Both the position numbers and the translations under genes were made by a program. 64,000 nt of DNA from Candidatus Marinacidobacterales bacterium (lineage in GTDB: Bacteria > Acidobacteriota > Vicinamibacteria > Marinacidobacterales > SMYC01). The stretch lies in the NCBI GenBank assembly GCA_965237955.1, contig OZ250169.1, positions 5,312,001 through 5,376,000 on the forward strand. The letters are read 5' to 3'. Under the pieces are notes generated by a model. It had not been told where the DNA came from. It ran no database searches and saw only the letters and a program-made list of their open reading frames with translations. This document shows positions 18,345-57,927 of this stretch, piece after piece (the first letter of the stretch is position 1; the number at the start of each line of letters is the position of its first letter).

Positions 18345-19190
18345 ATGGCTCGATTGGCTCACATCCGAAGCTGGGGCGTGGGGCTCGGGCTGTTGGTTCT
18401 TCTCGCCGGTAGTTTCTCCGTAGTGGCGGCTCAAGGTCGAGGCTGGTGGAACCGCGTCCCACCGCGGTTTGCGGAGCCGAACACCCCGTCGAACGACTTG
18501 TTCTCGTTTTGCCGCATCCTCTACGAAAGCGTGCGTCGTGAGCCTTCTGGCTATGGGTGGAACACCGACTACCCGTACTCCGACATCAATTTCATGACGC
18601 GTTTCTCGCAACTGACGACGGCGAAGATCCGTCGTGACGGCGATGGCATGCCCCAGCACGTGGTGGTGACGCTCTTTGACGATACGATCTTCGAGTATCC
18701 GTTCGTCTTCATGTCCGACGTCGGCACCGTTGGCTTCAGTCCAATGGAAGTCGAACGGCTACGGGACTACCTTGTCCGAGGCGGTGTCTTGTACGTGGAC
18801 GACTTCTGGGGAGAGCGTGCGTGGGAGCATTGGAAGCACGAGATCGGTAAAGTTCTTCCGCCGGATGACTATCCTATCGTCGACGTACCTCTCGATCACG
18901 TCATCTTTCGCACGTTCTACACGATCCGCAAAGTCCCGCAGATTCCGTCGATCCACTATTGGCGACGCTCGGGAGGGAGCAGTACTTCGGAGAGAGGGTG
19001 GGAGACCGCGGAGCCTCACTTCCGCGGTATCTTCGACGAGCACGGTCGGTTGATGGTGATCATGACCCACAACACCGACATCGCTGACGGTTGGGAGCGC
19101 GAGGCAGAAGAAGAAGAGTACTTCTACCGATTCTCGCTCAAAGCCTATCCCGTTGGCGTGAACATCGCGATCTACGCGATGACGCACTAG
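18345..19190 (+). CDS. DUF4159 domain protein
   Basis: WNTDYPYSDINF, LRDYLVRGG..DDFWG, HNTDIADGWE, GVNIAIYAMTH. Confidence 0.85.
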   Translation: MARLAHIRSWGVGLGLLVLLAGSFSVVAAQGRGWWNRVPPRFAEPNTPSNDLFSFCRILYESVRREPSGYGWNTDYPYSDINFMTRFSQLTTAKIRRDGDGMPQHVVVTLFDDTIFEYPFVFMSDVGTVGFSPMEVERLRDYLVRGGVLYVDDFWGERAWEHWKHEIGKVLPPDDYPIVDVPLDHVIFRTFYTIRKVPQIPSIHYWRRSGGSSTSERGWETAEPHFRGIFDEHGRLMVIMTHNTDIADGWEREAEEEEYFYRFSLKAYPVGVNIAIYAMTH

Positions 19191-19316
19191 TCCCCTGGAT
19201 CTTTGATTACTATACAAAGTTAGGCTTTTCGCCAGCCCATAAGATTCATAAGATTCATGCACTTAGAATGGTTTCGGCAAGCTCTGCTTTATCTAGTTTG
19301 TTCTGATACAGGGGAC
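19190..19316. mobile_element. IS630-type MITE-A (127 bp)
   Basis: GTCCCCTG...CAGGGGAC ends, TA duplicated (19188-89, 19317-18) in CTAG context. Confidence 0.92.
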
Positions 19317-19705
19317 TAGCGCGGCTGCCGCACTTTGATCCAGGCCGCCGGTCCTTCGCCCCTCCGCTCGCGCTCCTCGGAGAGCACCTCGACCTCGAGG
19401 CCTTCGGCTAGATCGTCGACGCTCCCGGCGGTATTGGCCTCGCCGAGCTCGCTGCGATCAACCCAAATGATGGTGTTCTCGGTGAGCTCGACGACGACCG
19501 GTCCCGTCTCCGTCGCCATCGTCAGCTGCCGCGCGTCAACATCGATCGCTTCGATGGAACCGATGCGCGCATATTCGCCCGAGATCCCCGGCGATTTTCC
19601 GATAGGGATGTATTGCTCCGTCGCCCGCTGGCCCGCGTCGGTTACGAGTGCGAGAGCCACGGCGAGCATGGTCAGGCTTTTTGTGTAGCGAAACTTCTCC
19701 TTCAC
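19316..19705 (-). CDS. Small exported hypothetical protein (OB-fold-like)
   Basis: N-terminal hydrophobic stretch, GSIEAIDVDARQLT..DLAEGLEVEV; overlaps the stop of the peroxidase gene. Confidence 0.65.
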   Translation of the reverse strand: MKEKFRYTKSLTMLAVALALVTDAGQRATEQYIPIGKSPGISGEYARIGSIEAIDVDARQLTMATETGPVVVELTENTIIWVDRSELGEANTAGSVDDLAEGLEVEVLSEERERRGEGPAAWIKVRQPR

Positions 19706-21055
19706 GACGTGCCCCCTTCGATGATTCGGCCTCTCGCCTCTTCGAGCTCCTCCAATGCGGTACGGAGGTGTCTTCGCTTGAAGAACCAGCTCCGTGCGGC
19801 GCGCGCGCTCGCGCGGCGTGACGCTTCGAGATCCTCGACCGCAAGCGGATGGAGACCGCCGCCGGCGAGGTCGGTAATGGCGTCCTCGATCTCGGCGTCG
19901 GCGAGCTCGATACCTTCTCGGCTCGGTCCATGGTCCAAGTTCTGTTGCAGCTGTTCGACGCTGAGTCGGATATTCTCGAGCGCGTTGATCACACGTAAGA
20001 ACGCCGCGACGGCGACTGTCTGGGTCGCATCCAGACGGATGCCGATCCCGTTGGGATCCGCGGCCGCCAGGGCTTGCCCGGAGGGTGAGTTGTTGAAAGC
20101 GTCGCCGCTATAGAATGCGACCGCCCCTTCGATGGTTTCGACCGAGTTGTTGTGGAAGAACGGCGGCGTATCGGCGGCCTCGACCAGAGTTGGGGTGTTG
20201 AACTGTCCGTTGCCGGGTGAGCCGAAGCCGTCGTCGCGCGGAATGAACTCACCGGTGAGACGCGCGGGTTGGTCGGGCAAGTCCTCGACCCCGGTGTCGA
20301 AATTCGCGTTGCCGAGGTCTTGTCCCCCGATGTTCGCGTTGGCGCCGGCGTTGACGTGGCAGATGTTGCACTTGCCGAGTGAGTTGTCGACAAAGATCTC
20401 TTGTCCGCGGACAGGCACGACACCGGTGAGGGGAAGCGGCAGCTCGATCTCGGACTGGCGTCCCAGGGAAAACTGGAACGCTTCGAGGGCGTCGAGCTCA
20501 TCGTCCGTCGGTAGTCGAAAGTCGACACCCGCAACCCGGTTCAACGTTTTTGGGAAGTGCTGGATAACGGCTCCGGTGGCGAACGAGCGAAGCGAGCCGT
20601 CTCCGGGTGAGCCGTCGCCGGACCAACCTAGATGGGGCCCCTGCGGGCTGTCGATCGATGTTCTGAGAGCGAACGTATGCGGGATGCCGCGCATGACGAA
20701 CTTGTTCTCGAGATCGCTGAAGCCGTCCAGATTCTCGAGAATGAGCCCGAATTGCCGCATGAGCTCGGGACGCTCCAACGTGGCGAGCACCGGGTTGAGC
20801 TCGGCGACGAACAGCGGATCGTCATCCGGAAGAGCGGCGATGAACGCTGCGTCGAGGGTGAAGTTGTTCTCCGCGGGATGACAGCTGCCGCAAGTTCTAC
20901 CGTTGCCGTCGAACGTTTCGTTGAAGAAGAGATAACGTCCCTCGGCGATCAGCTGTTCCTGGGGTCAGTGCCGAGGTTTCAGGAGTTTGGGCGAGCGCGA
21001 GCCCGGCGAGCACGATTCCGCTCAGAGTCACCAGGAAGTAGTGCAGACGAATCAT
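19702..21055 (-). CDS. Di-heme cytochrome c peroxidase/MauG-like protein (frameshift near 20962)
   Basis: Signal peptide from ATG 21055; CGSCH (~20880) and CNICH heme motifs; FNTPTLVEAADTPPFFHN. Confidence 0.75.
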
Positions 21056-21123
21056 GGGCACTTCTCTTTCAAAGCCCGCGTGGGAGAGATGAGAGTCGTG
21101 GATTACCGGGTGAGAGTTGATTC

Positions 21124-21139
21124 TGTGATGCGGATCACC
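21124..21139. promoter_or_regulatory. CRP/FNR-family-like site
   Basis: TGTGA-TGCGGA-TCACC, 9/10 match to TGTGA-N6-TCACA, between divergent genes. Confidence 0.35.
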
Positions 21140-21302
21140 ACGCGGCCAACCTGTGATTAGTTGCTTTACCTCGACCGGCGCGCGTCAAGGAGAACGTAAT
21201 TGCGAACAGCCGGATTGTAGCACAGCGATTTCCACATAGACCAGAACCTTAGAACCGGACTACCTAACCTACCTGGGTTAAGCCTGGGTTAGAATTTGCC
21301 CG

Positions 21303-22946
21303 ATGAAAAAAATATTGTGGCTGCCTCTGTTCTTCGCCGCAGCCTGCCAGCCCCGCGAAGCCGATCGTTTCCGGGTGGTCGAGGCGACCATCGCCGATAT
21401 TCAAGAAGCCGTTCTCTCCGGACGGACGACATGCCGTGGGGTGGTGCAGGCGTATCTCGAGCGCATCGAGGCCTATGACCAGCCCACCGGTCTCAACGCG
21501 ATTACGGTGGTGAACCCCAATGCCTTGGAAACCGCCGATGCGATCGATCGCGCGATCGCGAACGCTAAGGACGACGAGCTCGGACCGCTCTTTTGCGCTC
21601 CCATCCTCGTGAAGGACAACTTCGACACCCACGACCTGCCGACGACCGGGGGATCGATTGCGCTCATGGACAGCATCCCGCCGGACGATGCGTTCATGGT
21701 GCGAAAGCTTCGCGAGGCGGACGCGATCGTCATCGCCAAGACCAACATGGCGGAGTGGGCGTTCAGTCCCCGTCGTACCGAGAGCTCGTCCTACGGCACC
21801 ACCGCGAATGCGTACGCGCTCGATCGCGTTCCCGCGGGCTCGAGCGGAGGCACCGCGTCGGGCGTCGCGGCGAGCTTCGGCGTGGCCGGACTTGGCTCGG
21901 ATACCGGTAACTCCATCCGTGGTCCATCATCGCACCTTGCGCTTTTCGGGATCCGCTCGACGATCGGTCTCACGAGCCGCGACGGTGTCATTCCCCTCGC
22001 TTTCGATCGTGATATCGCGGGCCCGTTGACGCGAACCGTCGAAGACGGGGCCAGGGTCTTCGACGTCGTTGCCGGCTACGATCCCGCGGACTTCTACACC
22101 GAGCTCGGAAAAGGCAGACGCGAGGCCGATTACACGAGCTTTCTACGCGCGGACGGTCTCGAAGGAGCGCGCCTTGGAGTTTTGCGTGCTCTCGTGGATA
22201 CCGAGGATGCCGCCGCCGAAGTCATCGCGTTGTTCGAGGTAGCACTCGAGGAGCTCCGTGCCGCGGACGCGGAGATTATCGACCCGGTTGTGATCGACAA
22301 CTTCGCTTCTCACCTAGATGCGAGCAACGGGTGCCCGCGCTTCCGCTACGACATGTTCGTCTATCTGCAATCCCTGGGCGATGACGCGCCTATTGAAGAC
22401 GTGATGGAGGCGTACGAGAACGGCGATTATTCGGACTACGTCGCGAGCCGGCTCGAGCGCCATCAGGACCGACCGCTCGACGTGGCGCCTGCCGACTGGG
22501 ATCCTCCGTGTCCCGACTATGCCGATCATCCTGGCCGTCAGGCATATTTGGCGGACGTCGTTGCAGCGATGGATGCCTCGGGCGTGGATGCGCTCCTCTA
22601 TCCGACGTGGACGAATCCTCCCGCCCATATCGACCGGCCGAGCGAAGAGTACAAAGGCGACAACAGTCAGCTGGTCGCGCCGGCGACGGGCATGCCCGCC
22701 GTGACCGTGCCCATTGGTTATTCATACGACGGCCTTCCCGCCGGGCTTCAGATCTTGGGACGACCTTATGCGGAGGGTCGCCTCATCGAGCTCGCCTACG
22801 CGTACGAGCAGGCGACCCATCACCGGCTAGTCCCCCGGATCTTTGATTACTATACAAAGTTAGGCTTTTCGCCAGCCCATAAGATCCATAAGATTCATGC
22901 ACTTAGAAGTGTTTCGGCAAGCTCTGCTTTATCTAGTTTGTTCTGA
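21303..22946 (+). CDS. Amidase-signature family lipoprotein; C-terminus replaced by MITE read-through
   Basis: Lipobox AAAC, VKDNFDT, GSSGGTA, GSDTGNSIRGPSS. Confidence 0.9.
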   Translation: MKKILWLPLFFAAACQPREADRFRVVEATIADIQEAVLSGRTTCRGVVQAYLERIEAYDQPTGLNAITVVNPNALETADAIDRAIANAKDDELGPLFCAPILVKDNFDTHDLPTTGGSIALMDSIPPDDAFMVRKLREADAIVIAKTNMAEWAFSPRRTESSSYGTTANAYALDRVPAGSSGGTASGVAASFGVAGLGSDTGNSIRGPSSHLALFGIRSTIGLTSRDGVIPLAFDRDIAGPLTRTVEDGARVFDVVAGYDPADFYTELGKGRREADYTSFLRADGLEGARLGVLRALVDTEDAAAEVIALFEVALEELRAADAEIIDPVVIDNFASHLDASNGCPRFRYDMFVYLQSLGDDAPIEDVMEAYENGDYSDYVASRLERHQDRPLDVAPADWDPPCPDYADHPGRQAYLADVVAAMDASGVDALLYPTWTNPPAHIDRPSEEYKGDNSQLVAPATGMPAVTVPIGYSYDGLPAGLQILGRPYAEGRLIELAYAYEQATHHRLVPRIFDYYTKLGFSPAHKIHKIHALRSVSASSALSSLF

Positions 22947-22956
22947 TACAGGGGAC
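22830..22956. mobile_element. IS630-type MITE-A (127 bp)
   Basis: Near-identical to 19190-19316; TA duplication 22828-29/22957-58. Confidence 0.92.
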
Positions 22957-23045
22957 TAGCGCCGGAGCAGTTCGGCGAGCTCACACGGTAGATCGTAGAG
23001 CTCGTCTCGTCAATGCCTTCGAGATCGGCGTTTGTCCGCTCCGTG

Positions 23046-23714
23046 TCAGGACTCGATGAGACCATCGCGGAGACGAATCGCGCGCTCCGCGTGCTCCGCC
23101 ACTTCCTGTTCATGGGTGACGACGATCAGTGTATGCCCTTGGCGATGGAGCTCGTCGAAGAGCGCCAGAATCTCGGCTCCCGTGGCCGAATCGAGGTTGC
23201 CGGTGGGCTCGTCGGCGAGCACGATCGACGGGTCGTTGACGAGGGCGCGCGCGATGGCGACTCGCTGGCGCTGACCGCCCGACAGCTCGTTGGGTCGATG
23301 GTCGAGCCGGTCTCCGAGATCCACGCGCTCGAGAGCCGTCCGCGCGCACGCGCGGCGCTCCTCCGCAGGCACGCCTCGGTACACGAGCGGTAGCTCGACA
23401 TTGCGCAGCGCCGCGGCGCGCGGCAACAGCTGAAACGTCTGAAAGACGAACCCGATCTCGCGATTGCGCACGTGGGCGAGCTCGTCGTCTTCCATGGTGC
23501 TCACCTCCCTGCCGTTCAGGCGATAGGAGCCTTTCGTGGGGGTGTCCAAACAACCGACCAGGTTCATCAGTGTCGATTTTCCGGAGCCCGATGGCCCCAT
23601 GATAGCCACGTAATCACCTTTCTCGACCGTGACGTCCACCCCGGCGAGGGCGTGGATCTCCTCCGCACCCATGACATAGCTCTTCCAAAGACCGCGCGCT
23701 TCGATCAAACTCAT
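23046..23714 (-). CDS. ABC transporter ATP-binding protein (MacB/LolD type)
   Basis: [30 protein letters not shown]. Confidence 0.95.
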
Positions 23715-23791
23715 CCGATGGGATTGTAGCTTGTACCACCCGGTTGCGGGCGACGGTGGCGCACACTAGCATGCTCTTGCAAGGAAACAGC

Positions 23792-26247: not shown

Positions 26248-27527
26248 GCAGACAACGTCTCGTCGCTGCACTCGTCGGTGGCCTCGCGATCGTCGGTGTC
26301 GTTGCGATCACTCTCTACGAATCCAGTGAAGAAACAGTTCCGCTCCTCGAGGTTCGCATGGAACCGTTCCAGCAGCGGATCACCGCGGAAGGTGTGCTCG
26401 AAGCCGTGCGCTCGACGCCCCTGTCGTCGCCGCCACGGACCGAAGGCCCGGCCAAGATCGCGTGGATGGTCGAAGACGGGATCGTCGTCGAGCAAGGGGA
26501 CATCATCGTACGCTTCGATCCCACCGAACGAGAACGAGAGCTTCTGGAAGGAGAGGTGGCGCTTTCCACGGTCGAGAGCAAAATCCTGCAGAGCCAGGCC
26601 CAGACCGAGGCCTCGTTGCACGACGTGGAGCGCGACCGCCAACTGGCCCAGTTCGAGCTCGATATGGCCCGGAACTTCTCGAGCAAGGATCCGGAAATCT
26701 TCTCCCGGATGGAGATCATCGAAGCACAGATCGACGAAGAGCTGGCGGGTCTCAAACTCGAGCACGCCGAAGGCAGCGAACAGATCCAGGAGAGTCTCTC
26801 CGCGTCCGAAATGAAGCTTTTCAACATCGAAAGAACTCAGGCGGAGGTGAAGATTCGTCAGGCCAACGATGCGCTCAACGCTCTCGAAGTTCGCGCACCG
26901 CACGACGGCATCGTGATCTTCGTGAGGGATTGGCGCGGTAACATAAAGCAAGTTGGAGACACGGTCTACTCGAGACAGGCCATCGCCGAGCTTCCGGCCC
27001 TGGACATCATGAAGGCGGACATCTACGTGCTCGAAGCCGACGCGGGCGGACTCCAGGAGGGCCGTCCGGCAGAGCTTATCGTAGAGGCGGCACCCGAGCG
27101 TTCTTTCAGCGCGACGATCCGATACGTCGATCGTATGCCGAAGCCCAAAGTCCGCGGCGTTCCGGTTCAATACTTCTCGGTGACGCTGGGCCTGGAAGAA
27201 ACCGATCCCGAGATCATGAAGCCGGGGCAACGGGTGCGGGCCACGCTTGTCCTCGTCGAGAGCGATGCCGCTATCGTCGTCCCGCGTCAGGCCGTCTTCG
27301 AAAAGGAAGGCAAGAAGTTCGTCTATCGGGTCGTCCATCGGCGGGGCGGGTCCGGCTTCGAGGAAGTCGAGGTGAGACTCGGGCCGTCTTCTTTTGGGCG
27401 GGTCGTGCTCGAGGACGGTATTTCCGAAGGCGATACGATTGCGCTTCGCGATCCGGCGCGATCCCGCCGGGCGCTCGTGCCGGGTGCCGGCGAAAGCGCT
27501 TCCGATACGACTCCGAGCTTCCCATGA
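26244..27527 (+). CDS. Periplasmic adaptor (membrane fusion protein) 3
   Basis: TM anchor, EDGIVVEQGDIIVRFD, RAPHDGIV, MKPGQRVRA. Confidence 0.87.
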   Translation: MSRQRLVAALVGGLAIVGVVAITLYESSEETVPLLEVRMEPFQQRITAEGVLEAVRSTPLSSPPRTEGPAKIAWMVEDGIVVEQGDIIVRFDPTERERELLEGEVALSTVESKILQSQAQTEASLHDVERDRQLAQFELDMARNFSSKDPEIFSRMEIIEAQIDEELAGLKLEHAEGSEQIQESLSASEMKLFNIERTQAEVKIRQANDALNALEVRAPHDGIVIFVRDWRGNIKQVGDTVYSRQAIAELPALDIMKADIYVLEADAGGLQEGRPAELIVEAAPERSFSATIRYVDRMPKPKVRGVPVQYFSVTLGLEETDPEIMKPGQRVRATLVLVESDAAIVVPRQAVFEKEGKKFVYRVVHRRGGSGFEEVEVRLGPSSFGRVVLEDGISEGDTIALRDPARSRRALVPGAGESASDTTPSFP

Positions 27528-28759: not shown

Positions 28760-28923
28760 GGTGGCGCCATCAGGACGAGATGAGTGACTACCTCTGTCGG
28801 ACATGAGACGTCGACCGATGATAGCTCCCGCGAGCCGACGCCCGCAGTCAGTCGTGCTCGGGTCCTGGAGGGAAAGCGCCTTGCGCGCGAGGTCGTCGCC
28901 GCGACCAAGGATGACTTGTCACC

Positions 28924-30196: not shown

Positions 30197-30289
30197 CACT
30201 TCCGCATCGGGATACCCAACCCGCTGCCGCCCTACCTCGAGGCGCCCGGCTAGAGTAGAATCGAACAACCTTATTTCAGGAGACCGTCC

Positions 30290-32098: not shown

Positions 32099-32224
32099 AC
32101 GGAGCTCACATCGAATTCGCTTTGCCCGAGCCGGCAGTCGAACGTGTTACCGCCGCAGGCGAGAACTCTCATGGAGACCCATGAGACCTCGTCGCCTAGA
32201 GTCCTAGCGTCGAAAATCCTCCCA

Positions 32225-32713: not shown

Positions 32714-35514
32714 ATGAACACCTCGAATCGAGTGGGAGTATGTGGAATCTCGTTTGGCTTGGTGGTTTTGCTAACCGCTTGGAGCGCGACGGCGCTCGCT
32801 CAGTCAAAACCAGAACCAATATACGCAATCATCGTCGAAGAGGACGTTATGATCCCGATGAGCGACGGGACTCTGCTCGCGACGGACGTCTACCGTCCCG
32901 ACGTGGAAGGGAAGTTCCCCGCCCTGGTCGAGCGAACCCCCTACAACAAGTCGAGTTTCGTCGGCAATGCTTATTTCGCCGAACGCGGATACGTGTATGT
33001 GGAACAGGACGTGCGGGGCCGCTTCAAATCGGCGGGGGTATTCTACCCGTTTCTTGACGATGCATGGCTCGAGCGCCGCGATGGCTTTGACACCGTGCAG
33101 TGGATTGCCGAGCAGCCCTGGTCGAACGGCGTTGTTGGCGTGACAGGCGGATCCCATTCAGGCCAGACCGCCTATATGATCGGACCGACGCAGCCGCTCG
33201 CGATGAAAGCAATATTCGCCCGCGAGTCGGCGTCGAATCTTCGCGACCATTGGGTCTTTCGTGGTGGCGCCTTCGAGCACGCCTTCATCACTGCATGGGC
33301 AACACGCATGTTCGGGCCCAATATCGTCGAACGGGCGTACGAAGGCGAGAAAAAGGAAAATGAGCTGTCCAAACTCGCGTCTGCCGTCGAGGACCAGGCT
33401 AACGCCTACTGGCACCTGCCGCTCAGCGAGTACCCGGTTTTCAAGTCAACACCGGGCTGGCAGTTCTACTACGACTGGGTGACCAACGCGAATGACGGTC
33501 CGTACTGGTGGCGGCAAGCAATCGAACTGAAGCATAACCGCTTTGCGGTGCCTGTGTGCCACCTCGGCGGTTGGTTCGACATCTTTCTGGACGGGACCAT
33601 CAAGAATTTCGTCGGCATCCAGAAAAATGGCGCCACGCCTTTGGTCCGCAACAACCAGAAGCTAATTATCGGTCCGTGGTACCACGGCCCGTCCAATGTC
33701 GGAAAGACAGAAGTCGCCGAAATGGTATACCCCGGGGCGGACACGTATCCCGACGGGGAGGAGCTCAATTACGACACCCTTCGGCGGAAGTGGTTCGACG
33801 TTTGGAACAGAGCGCAGGATACCGGCTTCATTGACGAACCACCTGTTTTAATCTACGTGATGGGTGACAATAAGTGGCGCTTCGAGAACGAGTGGCCGCT
33901 CGCCCGCACCCAATACACCAACTATTATTTCGGCGGTGGCCGGTCACGGCCGTCCTCTACGGTATGTCGTCTGCGGTGGACACCGACTGGGTCGTCAAAC
34001 TTAGCGAAGTGTACCCGGATGGCCGCTCGATGCTAGTCCCCTGGATCTTTAATTACTGTCCAAATTCGATTTGCCATGTGTATCGAGCGTTCGCTGGGCG
34101 AACCGAGCGATGGTTTCGAGGATTTGGTCGGCGGATTTCGCCCACTTGAACGGCTTTGGGTTCTCGTTGTGAGCATCGAGATAGTCTTGTATCGCAACGC
34201 GGAGCTGAGGCACGCTCGTGTGCGAGCCTCGTCGCAAGGCGTGTTCGGTGAGCAAGCCAAAGAAGCGCTCAGCGAAGTTGAGCCAAGAGGCGTGTGTCGG
34301 TGTGAAGTGAAAGTGGAACCGAGGTCGCTTGGAAAGCCAGCGTTTGATCGCCGGTGTCTTGTGCGTGGCGAGATTGTCGAGCACGACGTGGATGTCCAAC
34401 TCGCTGGGAACGGCTGCTTCGATCTCAGCGAGGAACTTCTTGAACTCTAGCGCTCGATGTCGCGCGTAGCACTTTCCGAAGACTTCACCTGTTGCGGCGT
34501 CGAGTGCGGCAAACAGGTCAGTCGTTCCATGCCGAATGTAGTCGTGGGTTTGTCGCTCGGGCTGGCCCAAGCTCATGGGCAGGACAGGTTGAGCACGCTC
34601 GAGCGCTTGAATCTGCGATTTCTCGTCGACGCACAGGACGACCGCGTTATCCGGTGGGTTCATATACAGGCCAACAACGTCGCGTACTTTTTCGACCAGT
34701 TGTGGGTCTTGCGAGAGACGAAACGATTCCGAGCGGTGCGGTTGAAGCCCGAACGTTCGCCAAATACGTCCAATCGTCGAATGACTCAGCCCAAGATGCT
34801 TGGCCATCGAGCGCGTACTCCAATGGGTTCTCCCCTTTGGAGTCGTCTCCAGCGTCTTGGTCACGACTTCCTCGATCTGGTCATCGCCGATTTTGCGAGC
34901 CGCTCCCGGCCGAGGTTCGTCGTACAACCCTTCCATTCGTTGTTCTACAAAGCGTCTTCGCCACTTGCCCACCGTGCTCCTCATGGTGTGCATCTTCCTA
35001 GCAACTTCCATATTCGTCAGACCCGCCGCGCAATCCAGCACGATCTTCGCTCGGAAGGCTTGGTGCGGCGAACTACGGCTGCGTCGCGCCAGTCGCGTCA
35101 GCGCTTCGCTTTCTTGAGACGACAGCTTCAATTCGGCTTTTCGCCGGCCCTTGTGTTTCATGCATTTAGCAGATCACAGAAGGGCCGGTGTTGTCTAGCT
35201 TTTTATGTTCCATGGGACTAGTAGCCGACGGTATTCTCAGAGCGCGTTTCCGCGACTCCCAAACGAGTCCGACATTGATCGAACCTGGCAAGATTTACAG
35301 GTACGAGGTCGACCTGTGGGCGACTAGCAACGCGTTCAAGGCAGGGAACCGTATTCGAGTCAGCGTCCACAGCAGCAATTTCCCACGCTGGGACCGTAAT
35401 CTCAACACTGCGGAGAGTCCTGAAACGGGGGCGAAGTCGGTGGTCGCGCTTAACACGATTGTCCGCTATGAATTGCGGCCCTCGCATATCGTGCTGCCAA
35501 TTATTCCGCGCTGA
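32714..35514 (+). pseudogene. Second CocE/NonD hydrolase, internally deleted (~33940) and split by IS630
   Basis: ERTPY, QDVRGR, GGSHSG, GPWYHG; C-terminal domain DTDWVVKL..GRSML|VADGILRARFR..SSNFPRWDRN rejoins across IS630. Confidence 0.85.
34036..35218 (-). mobile_element. IS630-family insertion sequence (1183 bp), transposase 34049..35161 intact
   Basis: [27 protein letters not shown]; ends GTCCCCTGG/CCATGGGAC; TA duplication 34034-35/35219-20. Confidence 0.95.
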
Positions 35515-45706: not shown

Positions 45707-45717
45707 GTTGGGAGTTA

Positions 45718-47329
45718 GTCCCCTGTATCAGAAGTACGTCACCAAATTCTAGGGGGAGGTGCCCCCACCATAGTTGAAGGTTCGAGGTGGTGGCGGCTCC
45801 TGACACATGGTTTACCCGACTTTGGCGTGCTTGTCGAGCGCTTGATTCTCAGTGACCTCCGCTAACTTCGCTTCGAGGATCGGTAGCGATTGGTATCCAA
45901 TGATACGACGGAAATTTTTCTCCGTGGCGAGCAGAGCCGAAGCGGCCCATCTCAGAACCATCTTGCCATTGCGCCAGCGGGTGACGCGACGGGTACGACC
46001 TCGCGCACCGCTGAAGCACGACTCGATGATGTTCGTCGATCCAAGGCAGCGTTTCAGAGATGCGGGGAGGTCGAGCTCGTTGATGGTGAACATCTCGTCG
46101 AGCCCCTCCCGGATGCTCTCCGCCGCCGAGGGGTAGTCGTCCTCGAGCCACTTCGCCTGTTGCTCCAACCGCGCTTTGCCCTTCTTTGCTGGGAGCTGCC
46201 AGGCCGAACGCAGGCTCGCTTGCACTTGCGGCTTCAGCTCCTGCGGCAGATAACCGAGCACATTGCGCTCCTTGTGCTTCCTGCAACGCTGGACCTTGTT
46301 GTGGGTACCGAACACAGCGTCGACGGCGACCCGTAGCGCCTTGGAGCCATCGATCACGAACAGCCGACACCGCTCTGGGCTCAGGCCTCGTTCGACCAGG
46401 TCCTCCAGCAGCGCCTTGCACACTATCTGGTTCTCCGATGCTCCATCCCGAAGCCCCAGAACATGCTTGTATCCCTCTGTATCTACGCCGATTGCCGCCA
46501 GCGCGTGGTGCACGCCGAAGCGAATCCCGTCCAGGTACACGACCGCGATCTCCAGCTCGTCCAGCGGATGCTCCATCAGCCCCTGCAACTGCTCCGCGCT
46601 TGCTTCCACGAACTCACGGCTCACCTCGCTCTTGCTAACCCCTACCGTCTCCGCCATCTCGGGAAGAACCGACGCGTACTTGCGCGTCGACACACCCAGC
46701 ATCAGGATTTCCCAGATGCGTTGGCTCAGCCGAGACGAGTTGTTCACCGCTTCGTAGGCAGGAATCGCAACCTCCCCTCCCTCTGCCTTTCCCTTACGCC
46801 GCAGACGTGGCCGGCTCACTCTCAACTTCCGCTCCGCAAGGCTTACTACGCCACCCTGCCGGCCGTGCCAGCGAACATCGCTACCCTTCTTCCCCGGGTG
46901 TTTCTCCCCAGCCACACTTTGGGCTGACAGATCCAAGACCGCTTCGATCGTCGCTCGGCCAGCAACGTCGATCACTTTGTCGATCGCTATCTCGGTTCGC
47001 TCAATCGCATCCAAGAACGGCAACAGAGCTTGCCCCTTCGAGCTCAGTATCTCTCGAAGCTTCTTCCTGTTCTTCGCATCGATGATTTGGTAATTTGACA
47101 TCGTGGTGGCTCCTTTCTTTTTCCTTCACAGCCGGATTCTATCGAACCCGGCCTTAGGAGCCGCCACTCCTAACCTTCAACTATCTCAGGGGCATCTCCT
47201 TCTAGGGCGCTTTTGTGCGCTGGACGTCGTTGCAACTCCTGGGAATATCTAGAGATGACTTCGTCGTTGCGCCTCGCAGCGCGTAAAATCACCTCGAGCC
47301 TTTGGCCACGAACCTCTGATACAGGGGAC
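45718..47329. mobile_element. IS630-type MITE-B (~159 bp without the nested IS256)
   Basis: Perfect 15-bp IR GTCCCCTGTATCAGA/TCTGATACAGGGGAC, TA duplication 45716-17/47330-31. Confidence 0.85.
45755..47199 (-). mobile_element. IS256-family element, transposase 45812..47101
   Basis: IRs GGAGGTGCCCC..ATAGTTGAAGG / CCTTCAACTAT..GGGGCATCTCC; 8-bp duplication TTCTAGGG; YLDG, VIDGSKAL, QRCRKHK, STNIIES. Confidence 0.94.
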
Positions 47330-50300
47330 TAGTTCAACAAGGGAATGACAATGCTCTTTATGTCTTGAGAAGCGAAAGAGTAGGTGCCGGAGCCAACTTC
47401 ATAGACGGCGGCATTGTCTTCCATGCGGAGGAACGTGACGCCTGGCGCCTGATTTGCTTCTTTGCTGCTTTCGGTGACGCTGTCAGCGCTCACGGCGGGA
47501 ACATAAACGGTGGCGATGGTGTTAGCGGGAATAGTTACGTTGAGTTTCAGGTTACCGTCCGTGAGTTCCCAATGGGTAGCGATCGTGCCATGGATGGATT
47601 TATAGCTGGCTTTGACATGTGTCAAGTCACCACCGGGACGCGGGCGGATGATGATTTTCTTGAAACCAGGCCCGTCGGTATCGATTCCGGCGACGGTGGA
47701 AAACATCCATTGACCTACTGAGCCGAAGGGATAATGGTTAAGCGAAAATCCCATACCAGTTAAGTTCTCGTCGGAGCTCTGCCAGCCGGCCCAGCGTTCC
47801 CACATGGTAGTGGCGCCTTGTTTAACCAAGTATCCCCAGGACGGATAAGTTTCATTGGTCAACAGATGGTAAGCGATATCGAGCCTGCCGATTTCTTCCA
47901 GAGTGGGCAGTAGAATGTTCACCCCCAAGAAACCGGTGGAGAGATGCCAATTTCGTTCTTTGATGCGACCGGCCAGATGTCGGGCCGCGGCACGTTGCTT
48001 ATCTTTGGGGAGCAAATCAAAGCAAAGAGCCTGCAGATAAGCGGTTTGCGTGTCACCTTTGATCTTTCCGTCATCGGCGACGTAGGCTCTATTAAAAGCG
48101 GCTTTGATGTTCTCAAACAATTCCTGGTATTTTTGGGCGTCATCGTTTTTGCCCAGCGCTTGGGCTATCTTGGCCATGAGGCTCGTACTGTAGCCAAAAT
48201 AGGCGGTCGCTATCACGTCGGAGGGTGTCAGTGACTGGACATTGAGGTGGTCGTGAAACCCTCCCTCAGGCCGTACTAGATTGTTGCTGTTTTCACGGCA
48301 GTATTCGATCCAGGCGCCCATCTTGTCGTAGTGTTTTTCCAGAATGCGGGCGTCGCCATACATCTGATAAATAGTCCACGGGCAGGTTATGCCGGCGTCA
48401 GCCCAGCCGGGAGAACCGTGACCGCGCGAGACCGGCGCGAAATGGGAGTACGCTCCCTCTGGCGATTGGCAATCATTAACGGCGTTCAACCAGCTCGTGA
48501 AGAACGCCGCGACGTCCATATTATAGGTTGCGGTGCGAATGAAAACCTGGGCATCGCCGGTCCAGCCATACCGCTCATCGCGCGTCGGGCAGTCGGTGGG
48601 TACTTCCAGATAGTTGCCACGCTGACTCCAGACGATGTTTCGGTGTAGTTGATTGAGCATGGTGTTGGAGCACTCGAACGAGCCGGTAATGGGAGCATCC
48701 GAATGCAGCACGACGCCGGTAACGGCATCGAGTGAAGGCGTGCCCGGAAAGCCGGTTACTTCCACGTACTGAAAGCCGTGGAAGGTGAAGCGCGGTTCCC
48801 ATGTTTCCACATCCTTGCCCTTGAGAATATACGTGTCGGTGCTCTTGGCATAGCCCATGTTGACGGTATGGATAGTGCCATCGGGGTTGAGCATCTCAGT
48901 GAGGCGCAGCACCACCTTGTCGCCGGGGTTTCCTTTGACCTTGAGCCGGGCCCAGCCGACCATGTTCTGGCCCATATCAAACACATACACACCCGGTTTG
49001 GGTTCGGTGATTTTTACCGGTTTGATTTCCATGATTTTTCGCACCGGTTCACCGGGATGGGCCTGGAGTCTAGCGGCTGGCTCCCGCCCGGCCAGGGCAG
49101 GTTTCCAGAAACTGTCGTCGAAGCGGGGCTGATCCCGCCTGGCCAGGACAGGTTTCCAGAAACTGTCGTCGAAGTCGGGTTGGTTCCATCCCGGTATTTC
49201 CTTGCGGGAATCGTAGGTCTCGCCGTGGAACATGTGTGAAGTACGGATGGGCCCGTCGTACGTCGATTTCCATGACTCATCACTAGTGATAATCTCTGTG
49301 GAACCGTCAGCGTATTCCAGGCACAGTTGTCCGCGCAGGTATGGTATGGCAAGGTTGTGGCGAAGTATGGCCCAGCCGGCGCCCAGGACAACTCCCATGG
49401 CATTACTGCCATTGGCTTGCAGCAGATCAGTCACCTCATAGGTCTGGTAGTAAATTCGCTTGGCGTATTCGGGCCAGCCGGGCGCAAAGTAGTCACGGCT
49501 GACACGCTGGCCGTTGATATATAGTTCGTAGAGGCCCAGGGCAGTGATATAGACCGTCGCCCGACGCACGGGTTTTTTCACAGTGAAGTTCTTGCGCAAC
49601 TGCGCCACTGAAAAAGACTCCGACTCCGATCCAATGAATGCTACTTTGCCCCACGGTTTTCTGTCGCCGTAGTTAGCAACGGCTTTGGGTTTGACCCAGT
49701 CAGCGGCGTCAAAATCGACCTGGGTCCACCCCGCGACCGTTTTGTCGCTACAGAGCCACTGATCCCAGGGTAATAGTTTCGGTTGGCTAGTATCGGTTCG
49801 ATATACGTGGATGCCGCAGGCAACTCCGTTGATGCCGTTGGTGCCGTATAGACTGCCGGCGGCGATGGCGATTACATTCTTTCCGTGGTTTAACTCTTCG
49901 TTCATCTTGAGTTCGTAGAGTTGGTATCGCCACCACTGTGTTGCTGATTCAATTTTGTTTCCATTGGCGTACAAAGTGTAATGACCTATCCCCACTGTTA
50001 TTTGAATGATAATGCGCGTGACTGATTCGTCCAGCTCAAGCTCTCTGCGGAAGCAAATTTCGGTTCGTTCGTCTTTTCCTCCGCTGGGAGGTGAGATCCA
50101 TTTTTCCAGTCTAGCTTCCGGAATCGGTTCTTTGATCGGATAAGGGCTGATCCATTGCGCTTTCCAATCGCCGGCGTTCAGAAGTCCCATGGACCACCGG
50201 GCCGGCTTGCTCCAGGGCGAGGGCTTGTCGTTTTTGTCCCACAGACGCACTTTCCAGTAACAAAGCATCTGCGAGGAAAGTTTGGTGCCTGCGTAGACTA

Positions 50301-50700
50301 CGTGAATTGACTGATCCGAAGCGACCTTGCCGCTGTCCCAAAGATCACCCTGGTTTCGTTTGAGCTTGTTTTCGTCGCTGGCTACCAGAATCTGGTAGGC
50401 GCTTTGGCTCTGTGCGCGCTGATCGGATTCAACCAGCCAATAGAGTCGCGGCTTAGCTACATCGACACCCAGCGGATCGACACGGTATTCACACCGCAGA
50501 TCGGTTATGCGGATCGAATTAGAAACACCAGCCTGCAACTCGCCCCGAGGCCCTTCTTGGCCCAAGACGTCCTGGGATTCTCCCACGCAGAAAAGGATGG
50601 TAATGCCTCCTCCCGTGAGCTTCAGGAGCTTTCGTCTGCTGAGAGGAAGGACGGTGTCGTCGTCGTCGAAATCCAGGACGAGATAATCCTCTCTTCTCAT
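47329..50700 (-). CDS. GH78 alpha-L-rhamnosidase-like protein with twin-arginine leader
   Basis: DLRCEY..PLGVD, TALGLYE, DMGQNMVGW, PTDCPTRDERYGWTGD, GATTMWERW, SLNHY. Confidence 0.9.
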   Translation of the reverse strand: MRREDYLVLDFDDDDTVLPLSRRKLLKLTGGGITILFCVGESQDVLGQEGPRGELQAGVSNSIRITDLRCEYRVDPLGVDVAKPRLYWLVESDQRAQSQSAYQILVASDENKLKRNQGDLWDSGKVASDQSIHVVYAGTKLSSQMLCYWKVRLWDKNDKPSPWSKPARWSMGLLNAGDWKAQWISPYPIKEPIPEARLEKWISPPSGGKDERTEICFRRELELDESVTRIIIQITVGIGHYTLYANGNKIESATQWWRYQLYELKMNEELNHGKNVIAIAAGSLYGTNGINGVACGIHVYRTDTSQPKLLPWDQWLCSDKTVAGWTQVDFDAADWVKPKAVANYGDRKPWGKVAFIGSESESFSVAQLRKNFTVKKPVRRATVYITALGLYELYINGQRVSRDYFAPGWPEYAKRIYYQTYEVTDLLQANGSNAMGVVLGAGWAILRHNLAIPYLRGQLCLEYADGSTEIITSDESWKSTYDGPIRTSHMFHGETYDSRKEIPGWNQPDFDDSFWKPVLARRDQPRFDDSFWKPALAGREPAARLQAHPGEPVRKIMEIKPVKITEPKPGVYVFDMGQNMVGWARLKVKGNPGDKVVLRLTEMLNPDGTIHTVNMGYAKSTDTYILKGKDVETWEPRFTFHGFQYVEVTGFPGTPSLDAVTGVVLHSDAPITGSFECSNTMLNQLHRNIVWSQRGNYLEVPTDCPTRDERYGWTGDAQVFIRTATYNMDVAAFFTSWLNAVNDCQSPEGAYSHFAPVSRGHGSPGWADAGITCPWTIYQMYGDARILEKHYDKMGAWIEYCRENSNNLVRPEGGFHDHLNVQSLTPSDVIATAYFGYSTSLMAKIAQALGKNDDAQKYQELFENIKAAFNRAYVADDGKIKGDTQTAYLQALCFDLLPKDKQRAAARHLAGRIKERNWHLSTGFLGVNILLPTLEEIGRLDIAYHLLTNETYPSWGYLVKQGATTMWERWAGWQSSDENLTGMGFSLNHYPFGSVGQWMFSTVAGIDTDGPGFKKIIIRPRPGGDLTHVKASYKSIHGTIATHWELTDGNLKLNVTIPANTIATVYVPAVSADSVTESSKEANQAPGVTFLRMEDNAAVYEVGSGTYSFASQDIKSIVIPLLN
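49082..49183. repeat. 51-bp imperfect tandem duplication inside GH78
   Basis: Encodes QPDFDDSFWKPVLARRD / QPRFDDSFWKPALAGRE. Confidence 0.85.
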
Positions 50701-50968
50701 TGCTGGGTTCCTCTCTTCGTTTCCAATGCTGCGGTTTGAACGGCCTGGACAATACGGTTGTGAGCTCCGCAGCGACACAAGTTGACTTCCATAGCATCGC
50801 TACAGAGCTGACGATCGAGTAAGAGTACTGTCCGCACCTTTGTATTCTTGAACCACCTGCCCAGCTGGGCTTTCACGCTGTCTCCAACTATTCGCTCATC
50901 CATGCCAAGGACATCCCGGGGATTCCTATCACAGCCCCCCTAACAGGTCCATCGACAGAACGTCCCGC

Positions 50969-51532
50969 CTACTCGAGACAGCCCATCGCGGAGCTTCCGG
51001 CTCTGGACATCATGAAGGCGGACATCCACGTGCTCGAAGCCGACGCGGGCGGACTCCAGGAGGGCCGTCCGGCAGAGCTTACCGTAGAGGCGGCACCCCA
51101 GCGTTCTTTCAGTGCGACCATCCGATACGTCGATCAGATGCCGAAGCCCAAGATCCGCGGCGTTCCGGTGCAATACTTCTCGGTGACGCTCGGCCTGGAA
51201 GAAACCGATCCCGAGATCATGAAGCCGGGGCAACGGGTGCGCGCCACGCTTGTCCTCGTCGAGCTCGACGCCGCGATCGTCGTCCCGCGTCAGGTCGTCT
51301 TTGAAAAGGAAGGTAAGAAGTTCATCTATCGGGTCGTCTATCGGCAGGGCGGGTCCGGCTTCGAGGAAGTCGAGGTGAGACTCGGGCCGTCTTCTTTGGG
51401 GCGGGTCGTCCTCGAGGACGGTATTTCCGAAGGCGACGCAATTGCGCTTCGCGATCTCAAGGTTCGCCAGGATCTTTTCGGGTACGACGCGACTCTCGGT
51501 CAGACGCTGAAAGTCAACGATGTGTGGTTGGA
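50969..51532 (+). pseudogene. Diverged partial copy of adaptor-3 (26966-27453) joined to a permease piece (28003-28077)
   Basis: About 30 substitutions in 488 bp by hand count; junction at 51456/51458. Confidence 0.9.
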
Positions 51533-51646
51533 AAGCGACCGTCGAACCGATCGGGCGCGGTGAAGCCTCCCGCGACCAGGCCGCCGCGACCCGGATGAAG
51601 TGCTTTGTAAGCGATGTACAGCAAGAACGGTCCATGTATCCACCTC

Positions 51647-52186: not shown

Positions 52187-53275
52187 TGGTCCTTCTCGTT
52201 ACCGGAAGCGGTCGTGCCTTGAATTTGTCGTAGAGCTTGGTGTGGCGCGAGCTCACGTCGACGCGTCGGCCGCGGATCAGGACGTGTCGTACTTGTGTGG
52301 GCACGTCCAGGAGGTCGCCGTCGGAGACAACGACGTTCGCCACTTTTCCGACCTCGAGGCTGCCGTAGTCGTCGCCGACGCCCAGAATATCGGCAGCGCC
52401 TTTCGTCATCGCGTGCCACGCTCGCTCGCGCGGTAGGCCGAACGCGACCGCCATCCCCGCGGTGTAGGGAAGGTTTCGCGCGTTGGTCGCACCGCCGGTA
52501 CGGAAGCAGGAGGCAACACCAGCGTCTTGCAGTAGGCTCGCGGCTGTGAACACCGCATCATACGGATCTCCCGGCGCCGGCCGGCTTTCGAGCGGGCCGA
52601 GAATGACCGGGACACCCGCCGCGGTGATCGCATCGACCGTTCTCCACACGTCGCGCGTTCCGACGAGAATCGCATCGAGGCCGAATTCGTCGGCGAAATC
52701 GAGCGCGGAACGAATCCCATCCTCGCTGTCCGCTTGGAGGAGGACTGGAAGCTCACCCCGAACAACAGGGACGAGTGCACTAAGCTCGTCATCGTCGTCG
52801 TTTTCAGACGGCTGGTTGTGACCGTTCGCGATAGCGCCGGCGTACGCTTGGGCGCGTCGCATCCAATCGTGCAGTGTCTTCCGATCGGTCTCGACACGCT
52901 CTCTTGCCTCCTTCGCCTCCTTGTCAGGCAAGAGCTCGAGGATTTCCGGGAAGTCGATCACCATCGCCACCGGACTTTTGGCAACGACCTCGGGAGCGGT
53001 CCACCCTGTCATGTCGATGAGCGCGGCTTGACCCGAGATGAGTCCGCCGGCGGGAGCGGTGATCGCCGTGGTCACGCCGTTGGCGCGGGTGACCGGCAGC
53101 ATTTCGGAGTGAGGATGAACCGCGACCGCCGCTTTGACGCTCGCGTTGACTTCCTGAAGCTCGCGCACGTCTTGCGTTGCGGAGACGGCGCCAATCTCGG
53201 AGATTCCGAGTGTCGTTCCCGCATTGATGATGCCTGGAGTCACCACTAGGCCTCGGGCGTCAATGACCTCGGCAG
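52173..53275 (-). CDS. Amidohydrolase-family domain (degenerate metal site); likely C-terminal part of the upstream gene
   Basis: IDARGLVVTPGIINAG, RANGVTTA, GSLEVGKVANVVV; its N-terminal beta-strands lie in the upstream frame. Confidence 0.8.
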
Positions 53276-56161: not shown

Positions 56162-56197
56162 GGGGACCTCCTCTAAAAAAGGGTGGTAGCGTAACAT

Positions 56198-56555
56198 ATG
56201 AAAAACGCGCAACAAGACAAAGCCGCACGCTTTCGGGCGCTCCACGAGGGGCCGGATGTCCTCGTGCTGCCGAATGCGTGGGACGTTGCGACCGCAGTGC
56301 TGATGGAAGATGCCTGGTTTTCCGCGGTGGGGACAACGAGCGCCGGAATGGCGGCGCTCTACGGCTACCCCGATACCGAAGGTGAAAGAGCTCGGCGTTG
56401 CACGGGTGAGCGTCGGAAGCGCCATCGCGCGCGCCTCGCTAGCGCTGGTACGGGCTGCAGCCGACGAGCTACAAACCCACGGAACGTAGCTTCGCCGACA
56501 AAGCGATCCCCTACGACGAGGTCAACGACCTGCTCCGTCGCCGAGCCGATGGCTG
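56198..56555 (+). pseudogene. Isocitrate lyase/PEP mutase family remnant
   Basis: FRALH..LVLPNAWD..GTTSAG..GYPD then jumps to the C-terminal RVSVGS. Confidence 0.7.
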
Positions 56556-56590
56556 ACGGCCGATGGCGCACCTAAGCTAGTCCCCTGCTA

Positions 56591-56717
56591 GTCCCCCGGA
56601 TCTTTGATTACTATACAAAGTTAGGCTTTTCGCCAGCCCATAAGATTCATAAGATTCATGCACTTAGAAGGGTTTCGGCAAGCTCTGCTTTATCTAGTTT
56701 GTTCTGATACAGGGGAC
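56591..56717. mobile_element. IS630-type MITE-A (127 bp) preceded by an extra end stub CTAGTCCCCTG (56577-56587)
   Basis: Near-identical to the other copies; TA duplication 56589-90/56718-19. Confidence 0.92.
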
Positions 56718-57927
56718 TAGCTTACCCAACACCGACAGCAATTTATCCACATCCGAACGATTGTTGAACATCGCCACGCCCGCACGCAGGAGACCTCCGC
56801 CTTCGCGGAGCGTCACCGCGACTTTTTCTTTGGCGAGAACTTCCCGTAGGTGGTCGGGATCGAATCCATGATGGAAGCTCACGATGGGCGACGCGTTGTT
56901 CGGCGGCGTGAAGACGTCGAAGCCGAGCTTCTTGGCGCCTTCTCTCAGCTCAGCCGCCAGAGCAACGGTGTGTTTTTCGATGCGTGCGAGCCGAACGTTT
57001 TTCAGGTAACCGAGCGCCGCGTCCATCGCAGCGACCGCCGCGCGCGCTAACGCGGCGTACTCGAACTTCGCGGCGGTTTCCTTGAGACGAAAGTGATTGT
57101 CGGGAAGTTTTTCCGCGACCGAGCCGTGACCGTAGCGATCCGCATCCATCCACGCCAGATGCTCTTTCTTGACGTATAGAGGCGCGCACCCGAAGTCCGC
57201 GAACCACCACTTGTAGCCGTTGCCGCACGCGAAATCGACGCCCTCGTCGTGGAGGTTCGTTTGGAACGCCCCGAACGCCTGCACCGCGTCCGCGTACAGG
57301 TACGCGCCGTTGTCGTGAGCGAGCTCGGCGAGAGGGGGCAGGTCGTAGAGATACCCGTTTCGGGTCGAGACCCAAGCCACCGTCAAAAGGCGCGTTCTCT
57401 TGTCGACACGGGCCGCGAAGTCTTCCATCGGTACGCGGCCGTTTTTCGGCCGCACGATACGAAGCTCGATACCCTTGCGCTTTTCGAGCTCACGGTACAG
57501 GACGAAGCTCGTGACGAAGTGCAATTCGTCGAGCACGACGTTGTCGCCCTCTTTCCAATCCATGGCGTTGACGACGACGTTCTCCCCGTCGCTCGTCGAG
57601 TAGAGGAGCGCCCACTTCGTCCTCGTCGGCGCCGAAGAGCTCGGCGAACCGCGTGCGGGCTCGCTCTTTCGTCTGTCCGCGACTGCGCCTGTTTCTCAGG
57701 AGCATCTCCTCGTCCGCGTAGGCCGCGACTGCATCGCGAGTCGCTCGCGACATCGGCCCTGTGCCGCAGCTATTGAGGTAAGTCTGCTCGGCGGTGAGTG
57801 GAAAATCCGCGCGAACGCCCAGCGGATCTTCGTCCGAGGGCGCGGTAAGCCCACGGGCGGAGTGAAGAGAAGCGAGGCCGGCGGCGGCCGTGGTCTCGAG
57901 AAAGCGGCGGCGATTCATTGCACTCAT
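56694..57927 (-). CDS. Tat-exported class V aminotransferase/cysteine desulfurase-like protein (frameshift ~57612)
   Basis: MNRRRFLE leader, RADFP..YLNSCGTGP, YADAVQAFG, GYKW PLP lysine. Confidence 0.8.

What the first reader, a model, noticed from the sequence alone, without database searches (positions are those of the whole stretch)
19187..56720. MITEs land at gene 3' ends and rewrite stop codons and C-termini
Seen: at 19188 the MITE splits a CTAG that held the overlapping stops of two convergent genes, and each gene keeps its TAG. At 22828 it replaces the amidase tail LAPEQFGELTR* with an in-frame 39-aa LVPRIFDYYTKLGFSPAHKIHKIHALRSVSASSALSSLF*. At 56718 it changes ..GKLA* to ..GKLVPCIRTN*. 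MITE-B converts the GH78 stop TAA to TAG. So four of five MITE insertions are at or within ~10 codons of a stop. Inference: a portable 3'-end cassette supplying C-terminal peptide tags and a hairpin 3' UTR, from either targeting or selective survival.
Basis: partly seen in the sequence, partly recalled or inferred. Interest (0 to 1): 0.7.

Follow-up and report, generated by a model that had tools for sequence, protein, structure and literature searches.

The report
CTAG-targeting IS630-type MITE at gene ends
A 127-base jumping DNA element, likely moved by the cell's own IS630 transposase, lands on CTAG and rebuilds any TAG stop codon it splits; its copies are scarce deep inside genes, likely because selection removes them, so the new protein tails it makes are most likely ordinary by-products rather than a tagging system.

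Summary
The local observations hold. Contigs from near-identical strains lack the element at 19188, 22828 and 56718, which shows a TA duplication and recent, strain-level insertion. The generalisation fails. The genome has 117 MITE-A copies and 42 IS630 copies with matching ends; 161 of 167 excised sites give CTAG. Only 26 of 112 MITE-A sites are at a stop or in the last 15 codons (12.5% of all CTAGs; OR 2.15). This comes mainly from depletion deep in genes (4.9 per 1000 CTAGs against about 18 intergenic). The whole 3'-end zone is hit at the intergenic rate (30/1397 against 48/2435, p=0.72). The last 15 codons alone keep a weak excess (OR 2-3, p 0.007-0.07). In seven relative genomes 0 of 28 sites are at gene ends. 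There is no orientation or frame bias, the peptide frame varies neutrally, and the 56718 gene is frameshifted. Stops survive because the element's terminal G and C rebuild CTAG on both sides. This is a new member of the known TA-target MITE kind (RUP, ERIC), for which C-terminal fusions are already published. One side lead: a variant in other genomes reads through as a 43-codon in-frame insert.

The parts
19190..19316 (+). MITE-A, 127 bp, TA duplication (19188-19189, 19317-19318), inserted in a CTAG that is the stop of two convergent genes
   Evidence: empty allele skips 129 nt in X2, X3, X4
18312..19190 (+). DUF4159 gene; stop TAG = duplicated TA + first G of the MITE (start codon not fixed)
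19316..19705 (-). 129-aa conserved protein of no known family; stop TAG uses the MITE's last base
21303..22946 (+). Amidase (PF01425 complete at residues 47-494) with a 39-aa MITE-derived tail; the old stop lies at 22989-22991
22830..22956 (+). MITE-A inserted 11 codons before the amidase stop
   Evidence: empty allele in X3, X4
56591..56717 (+). MITE-A near the 3' end of the aminotransferase gene, giving the 8-aa reverse-strand tail
   Evidence: empty allele in X4
56577..56587 (+). 11-nt duplicate of the MITE's left end beside the insertion
   Evidence: the X4 contig skips 140 = 129 + 11
56694..57927 (-). Class V aminotransferase gene, broken by a +1 frameshift at 57611-57612 in this strain
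10143..10291 (+). MITE-A with a duplicated right end, inside a transposase ORF (HTH_Tnp_1), 33 codons from its stop: the fifth, non-terminal copy
34036..35218 (-). IS630-family element, 1183 bp, transposase 34049-35161 (370 aa); likely mobiliser; sits in the middle of a broken S15 peptidase gene
45718..47329 (.).
   Evidence: X3 has the MITE without the IS256 element
47329..50778 (-). GH78 alpha-L-rhamnosidase gene; stop TAG completed by the element's terminal base (earlier TAA inferred)

Best explanation
MITE-A is a non-coding 127-bp element, likely mobilised in trans by the resident IS630 transposase, that inserts at the TA of CTAG, duplicates the TA and rebuilds CTAG on both sides, and its lean towards gene ends likely reflects loss of copies that hit deep inside genes. 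Shown: a CTAG in a gene's own strand is either its stop or lies in one of two reading phases. At a stop, TA plus the element's terminal G gives TAG again, in either orientation and on both strands, so the protein is unchanged. Inside a gene, all four phase-orientation combinations meet a stop within the common form of the element (tails of 39, 6, 8 and 21 aa), so the gene is cut there. Inferred: cuts in the last few codons cost little and persist at about the intergenic rate, cuts deep in genes are mostly purged, and the tails have no selected function.
For: Target: 161 of 167 excised sites give CTAG; empty alleles skip 127+2 nt. Mobiliser: ends match the IS630 at 19 of 20 and 15 of 20 bases; 33 of 34 full-length (1183-bp) IS630 copies have an intact transposase; DDE_3 and HTH domains. 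Position, MITE-A per 1000 CTAGs: stop 23.6 (16/679), last 15 codons 35.7 (10/280), 16-50 codons 14.7 (8/543), 51-150 13.0 (16/1233), over 150 4.9 (10/2045), intergenic 18.1 (52/2873); over 150 against intergenic OR 0.27, p 2e-5; stop against intergenic OR 1.3, p 0.35. 3'-end zone 30/1397 against other intergenic 48/2435, OR 1.09, p 0.72. No orientation bias (16 forward, 10 reverse, p 0.33); 39-aa frame 4 of 10, expected share 0.39. 72 distinct substitutions give 52 nonsynonymous, 15 synonymous, 5 stop against 50.5, 18.3, 3.2 expected; a frame open for 39 codons arises in 34% of shuffles. Relatives: 26 of 28 intergenic, 0 at gene ends. Mid-gene copies cut or cut off real domains (Mrr, Omp85, kinase, sigma-54 activator, SpoIIM), while the near-end hosts with a Pfam match keep it upstream of the insertion.
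Against: The last 15 codons are hit 2.0 to 3.0 times as often as intergenic CTAGs (p 0.065 unfiltered, 0.007-0.04 under five other filters); stop plus last 15 against all intergenic gives OR 1.5 (p 0.11), or 1.7 (p 0.036) outside repeats. Pure neutrality predicts at most the intergenic rate unless intergenic sites are themselves under selection. Sites 16-150 codons from the stop are not significantly depleted (OR 0.7-1.2). An age test gave no clear support: last-15 copies have more private changes (6 of 10 against about 1 in 3) but p 0.08, and all 'harmless' classes pooled gave p 0.52. The element's interior has no match in the IS630 and 4 of 5 MITE-bearing relatives had no DNA match to this IS630, so the mobiliser is inferred. 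Gene calls come from my own caller (82% coding).
Confidence: 0.82

Rival explanations
1. The transposase has a mild true preference for gene ends (for example where transcription ends or genes converge), on top of CTAG choice and survival.
For: Residual excess in the last 15 codons and at stops; convergent ends are hit somewhat more often (15/410 against 11/558, p 0.16); all element types together at stops against intergenic OR 1.5-1.85, p 0.015-0.10.
Against: CTAGs within 45 nt after a stop are not enriched (4/438 against 48/2435); IS630 and the 160-bp MITE have no copy on a CTAG in the last 15 codons; at least one IS630 'stop' (window 34036) is the end of a broken gene; relatives 0 of 28 against a background of 28/333 (p 0.15).
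Confidence: 0.08
2. The element is kept at gene ends because its RNA hairpin tunes transcript ends or stability, as reported for ERIC in Yersinia and Correia elements in Neisseria.
For: Both strands fold better than shuffles (z -3.5 and -5.2); one terminator-like site on the minus strand; on the reverse strand 15 of 46 changes at paired bases keep the pair (0.18 expected) and the inner part folds better than 97% of shuffles.
Against: Changes are not depleted at paired bases (p 0.42 and 0.48), only 2-3 compensatory cells, and the forward inner part is no better than shuffles; no orientation bias; no significant avoidance of operon-internal ends (4/223 against 22/745, p 0.48). A side effect on RNA remains possible without being the reason for the positions.
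Confidence: 0.05
3. The element is a portable cassette selected to supply C-terminal peptide tags.
For: The 39-aa tail does form on several unrelated proteins, 4 of the 10 last-15 cases, and on 10 of 33 database proteins.
Against: Four different tails arise in proportion to chance; the frame varies neutrally and gains stops; the same tail sits on truncated genes; hosts never recur and clusters are small (1-13 members, 1-3 contigs); insertions are absent in near-identical strains; the 56718 host is frameshifted.
Confidence: 0.03

Closest known systems
RUP of Streptococcus pneumoniae with IS630-Spn1 (PMC2229807, passages; PMC3049150, passages)
   Same: Small, about 110 copies, ends like a resident IS630, TA target, often found inside other IS elements (21 of 112 MITE-A sites lie in repeated DNA).
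   Different: Different sequence; near-strict CTAG target here; RUP has stops in all six frames, whereas one MITE-A frame is open for 39 or 43 codons.
ERIC / RU-1 of enterobacteria (PMC2759123, passages; PMC2229807, section 10; PMC10969869, passages)
   Same: 127 bp, TA ends, long hairpin, open frames fused to host genes; the published amidase ECA3499 has RU-1 fused at its C-terminus beyond the conserved domain, the same picture as 22828.
   Different: No direct sequence comparison with ERIC was run; Rfam gave no match in the window. RNA effects are shown for ERIC and untested here.
QMITE1/QMITE2 of Coxiella and BOX of pneumococcus (PMC5896051, passages; PMC3049150, passages)
   Same: Repeats that overlap the extreme 3' ends of genes, supply the stop codon or extend the C-terminus (EnhC +33 aa; 36 of 58 BOX overlaps at 3' ends).
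   Different: Other element families and targets; in the passages seen, the link to a stop-containing target word is not made.
Rickettsia palindromic elements, RPE (PMC10969869, passages; PMC2229807, part 1)
   Same: The TGC variant of MITE-A adds 129 nt with an open 43-codon frame and is found read through in predicted proteins.
   Different: RPEs are often in frame in genes; here 1 of 107 copies in this genome has the open frame and none of 28 relative sites is an in-frame insert in a called gene.

Membership tests
Prokaryotic MITE | Short (<200 bp), no transposase, many copies | tested here: met
   127 bp, 117 paired copies; longest frame 39-43 codons
Prokaryotic MITE | Terminal inverted repeats | tested here: met
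   8 of 8, 11 of 15, 21 of 35 terminal bases
Prokaryotic MITE | Target-site duplication with empty alleles | tested here: met
   Contigs skip 129 = 127 + 2 nt and 140 = 129 + 11
Prokaryotic MITE | Transcript predicted to fold into a long stem-loop | tested here: met
   z -3.5 and -5.2, largely from the ends on the forward strand
IS630-mobilised MITE (RUP-like) | Resident IS630-family transposase with matching ends | tested here: met
   PF13358 + HTH; ends 19/20 and 15/20; 33 intact copies
IS630-mobilised MITE (RUP-like) | TA duplication, CTAG preference | tested here: met
   161 of 167 sites; IS630 TA duplication in PMC2170065 passages, CTAG preference in a reference title there
IS630-mobilised MITE (RUP-like) | Transposase binds and moves the MITE ends | not testable with these tools
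   Needs a binding or transposition assay; 4 of 5 MITE-bearing relatives lack a DNA match to this IS630
RPE-like in-frame coding repeat | Insertion keeps the frame and one frame is open throughout | tested here: inconclusive
   129 nt = 43 codons; open in 1 of 107 own and 9 of 20 relative copies
RPE-like in-frame coding repeat | Copies commonly sit in frame in working genes | tested here: not met
   0 of 28 relative sites; read-through cases in the protein set are single small clusters
ERIC/Correia-type RNA control element | Orientation-dependent effect on transcript processing | not testable with these tools
   No RNA run held the stretch; no orientation bias in position
C-terminal peptide-tag cassette | Peptide under purifying selection and preferred frame at gene ends | tested here: not met
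   52 N / 15 S / 5 stop against 50.5 / 18.3 / 3.2; 4 of 10, expected share 0.39

The most novel reading that the evidence does not exclude
This MITE lineage is a 'low-damage' element shaped to spare host genes: it rebuilds any stop it splits, adds an exact multiple of three bases (127, 160, 217 and 1183 bp each become a multiple of three with the TA), and in its TGC form reads through as a 43-codon in-frame insert into proteins such as an AhpC/TSA and an FtsX-family protein. It would be an IS630-driven counterpart of the Rickettsia RPEs that has crossed genera at 97% identity, the TGA form in this genome giving the truncating tails.
Probability: 0.1. Interest if true: 0.55.

Novelty: new member of a known kind. 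Interest (0 to 1): 0.2.

Why it matters
As it stands it is ordinary: one more TA-target MITE whose position near gene ends follows from its target word and from survival, with published precedents for C-terminal fusions. It is a tidy worked example, because empty alleles, an intact partner IS630 and over 100 sites allow the background test, and it warns annotators that this repeat creates false C-termini and small false ORFs. It would matter more if the in-frame TGC form proved to be tolerated in working proteins, since that would give a currently mobile system for testing how repeats add peptide segments to proteins.

Tried and rejected
No RNA holder listed for window 17500-23500, so expression was not assessed. 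Rfam: 0 matches in the window. No sigma-70-type promoter in 19100-19400. The 129-aa gene was not found in 5 of 5 relative genomes but was found in the protein set. No empty allele for the GH78 site. The age test of survival was inconclusive. Flank preference (C after CTAG: 53% against 34%) does not explain the class differences. Operon-internal avoidance was not significant. A closer IS630 parent carrying the exact MITE-A left end, hinted at by a loose end in run X1, is not in this genome. The idea that the aminotransferase frameshift is an assembly slip was rejected: X1 contigs at depth 17 do not lack the base, while the other strains do; the X2 contig covers it with only 11 letters beyond. 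De Gregorio 2005 and Tenzen and Ohtsubo 1991 were not held; they are cited only through reviews and a reference title. The search of earlier findings returned nothing.
Full report
What is there. The repeat at 19190, 22830, 56591 and 10143 is one 127-bp element (MITE-A) flanked by CTA and TAG. The IS encodes a 370-aa protein with DDE_3 and HTH domains, an IS630-family transposase; one copy lies in the window at 34036-35218. Its ends match MITE-A at 19 of 20 and 15 of 20 bases, and 33 of the 34 copies of 1183 bp have an intact frame. Cutting out each element with one TA gives CTAG at 161 of 167 sites; 9 of the 167 are tandem or nested. IS630 elements duplicate TA (PMC2170065, passages), and a reference title there reports preference for TA in CTAG (that paper's text was not held).

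Checking the four claims. All are in the sequence, and public contigs give the empty alleles. Runs X2, X3 and X4 (three studies) skip exactly 129 nt at 19185-19315; X3 and X4 skip 129 nt at 22826-22956, with short sides of 26 and 37 letters; X4 skips 140 nt at 56576-56717, the element plus an 11-nt duplicate of its left end. The long X3 and X4 pieces differ from the window by a few bases per hundred or less, so the insertions are recent and strain-specific. The lost amidase tail is real: 9 of 9 orthologues end in a similar motif with a proline and a phenylalanine. The new tail happens to keep L-x-P-x-x-F at the same spacing, and the Pfam domain ends at residue 494, before the insertion. The aminotransferase homologues (9 of 9) end at the length of GKLA*. 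But that gene is split by a +1 frameshift at 57611-57612; X3 and X4 lack the extra base and X1 does not, so in the MITE-bearing strain the tail hangs on a broken gene. The second convergent gene at 19316 is real (15 homologues). The GH78 TAA-to-TAG change is inferred from the TTAG target; X3 carries that MITE too, without the IS256-family element that later split it.

The genome-wide test. I trained a hexamer gene caller on the element-free genome (7633 genes, 82% coding) and classed all 7681 CTAGs. CTAG is rarer in genes (0.73 per kb) than outside (1.90 per kb), and 743 called genes end in CTAG. MITE-A occupies 112 CTAG sites: 16 of 679 stops, 10 of 280 sites in the last 15 codons, 8 of 543 at 16-50 codons, 16 of 1233 at 51-150, 10 of 2045 beyond 150, 52 of 2873 intergenic, 0 of 28 ambiguous. 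So 26 of 112 (23%) are at or near a stop against 12.5% of all CTAGs (OR 2.15, p 0.001). Stops do not differ from intergenic sites (OR 1.3, p 0.35). Sites within 45 nt after a stop are hit less, not more (4 of 438), and the whole 3'-end zone equals other intergenic DNA (30/1397 against 48/2435, p 0.72). Against this reading, the last 15 codons alone show OR 2.0-3.0 (p 0.065 unfiltered, 0.007-0.04 under five filters), on 9-10 events and after many comparisons; against convergent intergenic sites p is 0.16. The window is a high draw: second of 13 tiles with three or more sites, and 3 of 4 has probability 0.04 at the genome rate.

Relatives. MITE-A matches 8 other genomes of the 60 searched, in five other genera and two families; the best copy is 94-98% identical in seven of them and is a 34-nt end in the eighth (at most 14 candidates were scored per genome). 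I fetched 40 of the 48 listed matches. Six were partial or lacked a clean end and six gave no separate site; of the 28 left, from 7 genomes, 26 are intergenic, 2 in called genes and none at a stop or in the last 15 codons, against 28 of 333 empty CTAGs in the same loci (p 0.15; genes called with this genome's model). Several share flanks with multi-copy repeats of this genome, so these sites are not all independent of each other.

Is the peptide or hairpin selected? In the common form every phase and orientation stops inside the element, giving tails of 39, 6, 8 or 21 aa. Among the last-15 cases the 39-aa tail is 4 of 10, as expected from CTAG phases; orientation at gene ends is 16 to 10 (p 0.33). 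Across 127 full-length copies (107 own, 20 from relatives) 72 distinct substitutions fall as 52 nonsynonymous, 15 synonymous and 5 stops in that frame, against 50.5, 18.3 and 3.2 expected; 34% of shuffles have a frame open as long. Both strands fold well, but changes are not depleted at paired bases; the reverse strand shows a weak excess of pair-keeping changes (15 of 46 against 0.18). Of the 10 genes hit 2-19 codons from the end that I scanned, 8 have a Pfam match upstream of the insertion and one of these (arginase) is only a fragment; of 25 mid-gene cases scanned, 12 show a Pfam domain at the strict cut-off, several cut or cut off.

Mechanism. Shown: CTAG targeting, TA duplication, rebuilding of CTAG on both sides by the terminal G and C, hence intact TAG stops on either strand, and truncation with a short tail when the hit is in a reading frame. 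Inferred: mobilisation by the resident IS630 (4 of 5 MITE-bearing relatives have no DNA match to it, so other IS630 relatives may serve there), removal of deep hits by selection, and neutrality of the tails.

Comparison. It works like RUP with IS630-Spn1 and like ERIC/RU-1 (PMC2229807: part 1 of 3, passages and section 10). C-terminal fusions are in print, including an amidase with RU-1 added beyond its domain (PMC2759123, passages), Coxiella QMITE overlaps and the EnhC extension (PMC5896051, passages) and BOX elements supplying stop codons (PMC3049150, passages); effects of 3' ERIC elements on mRNA are reviewed in PMC10969869 (passages). In the listings of searches I saw no title or abstract on this element or on stop rebuilding by a CTAG-targeting MITE; most subscription papers are not in that library and no supplements were read.

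The most novel residue. Outside this genome codon 40 is often TGC (13 of 20 relative copies; frame fully open in 9 of 20, against 1 of 107 here), so the 129-nt insertion can read through. Of 33 predicted proteins holding the peptide, 10 end at the TGA and by my reading 19 run through; in P0022 (AhpC/TSA) and P0025 (FtsX) the host domain resumes right after the insert. Each is a small cluster with a different host, and the frame varies neutrally, so I give an RPE-like, selected role 0.1. Verdict: real features, ordinary cause; interest 0.2.

Noticed in passing
G008, G012, G013, G015, G018, G021, G023 (L026-L065): MITE-A is 94-98% identical across five other genera and two families while this IS630 has a DNA match in only 1 of 5 tested; the same flanks recur across genera, which suggests recent horizontal spread inside other repeats.
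   Followed up: partly
P0019, P0021, P0022, P0025: A TGC-type variant reads through as a 43-codon in-frame insert in predicted proteins (transposase, UvrD/Abi_C, AhpC/TSA, FtsX).
   Followed up: partly
genome-wide; window 19190, 34036, 45718: All four element lengths (127, 160, 217, 1183 bp) become multiples of three with the 2-bp duplication; the 160- and 217-bp types look related, so about three independent cases.
   Followed up: partly
window 32714-35514: S15 peptidase gene lacks PepX_C profile positions 43-126, is out of frame and holds the IS630 in mid-gene; an intact paralogue lies at 30290-32098.
   Followed up: partly
window 56577-56587: An 11-nt duplicate of the MITE's left end beside the insertion, absent with it in strain X4: an aberrant insertion or a leftover of an earlier one.
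   Followed up: partly
window 22860 and 56621 (run X1 loose end): A contig continues from the MITE-A left end into sequence like the IS630 transposase 3' end: a closer autonomous parent may exist in that sample but is not in this genome.
   Followed up: partly
whole genome: About 26% of the element-free genome lies in repeated 24-mers; the window alone holds IS630, two IS256-family, IS110, IS91-like and integrase-core transposase genes and several broken genes, a sign of an IS expansion.
   Followed up: no
window 5327-5626 and 11591-11890; 26966-27265 and 50969-51268: Duplicated gene segments (SpoIIE-domain gene 100% identical over 300 nt; efflux adaptor gene 94%).
   Followed up: no
G000 C1:79798, 91519, 95554, 118140, 360143, 910134, 3684858, 4168075, 8032376: A separate dispersed repeat that begins like the MITE end but follows TAG rather than CTA; not part of this family.
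   Followed up: no
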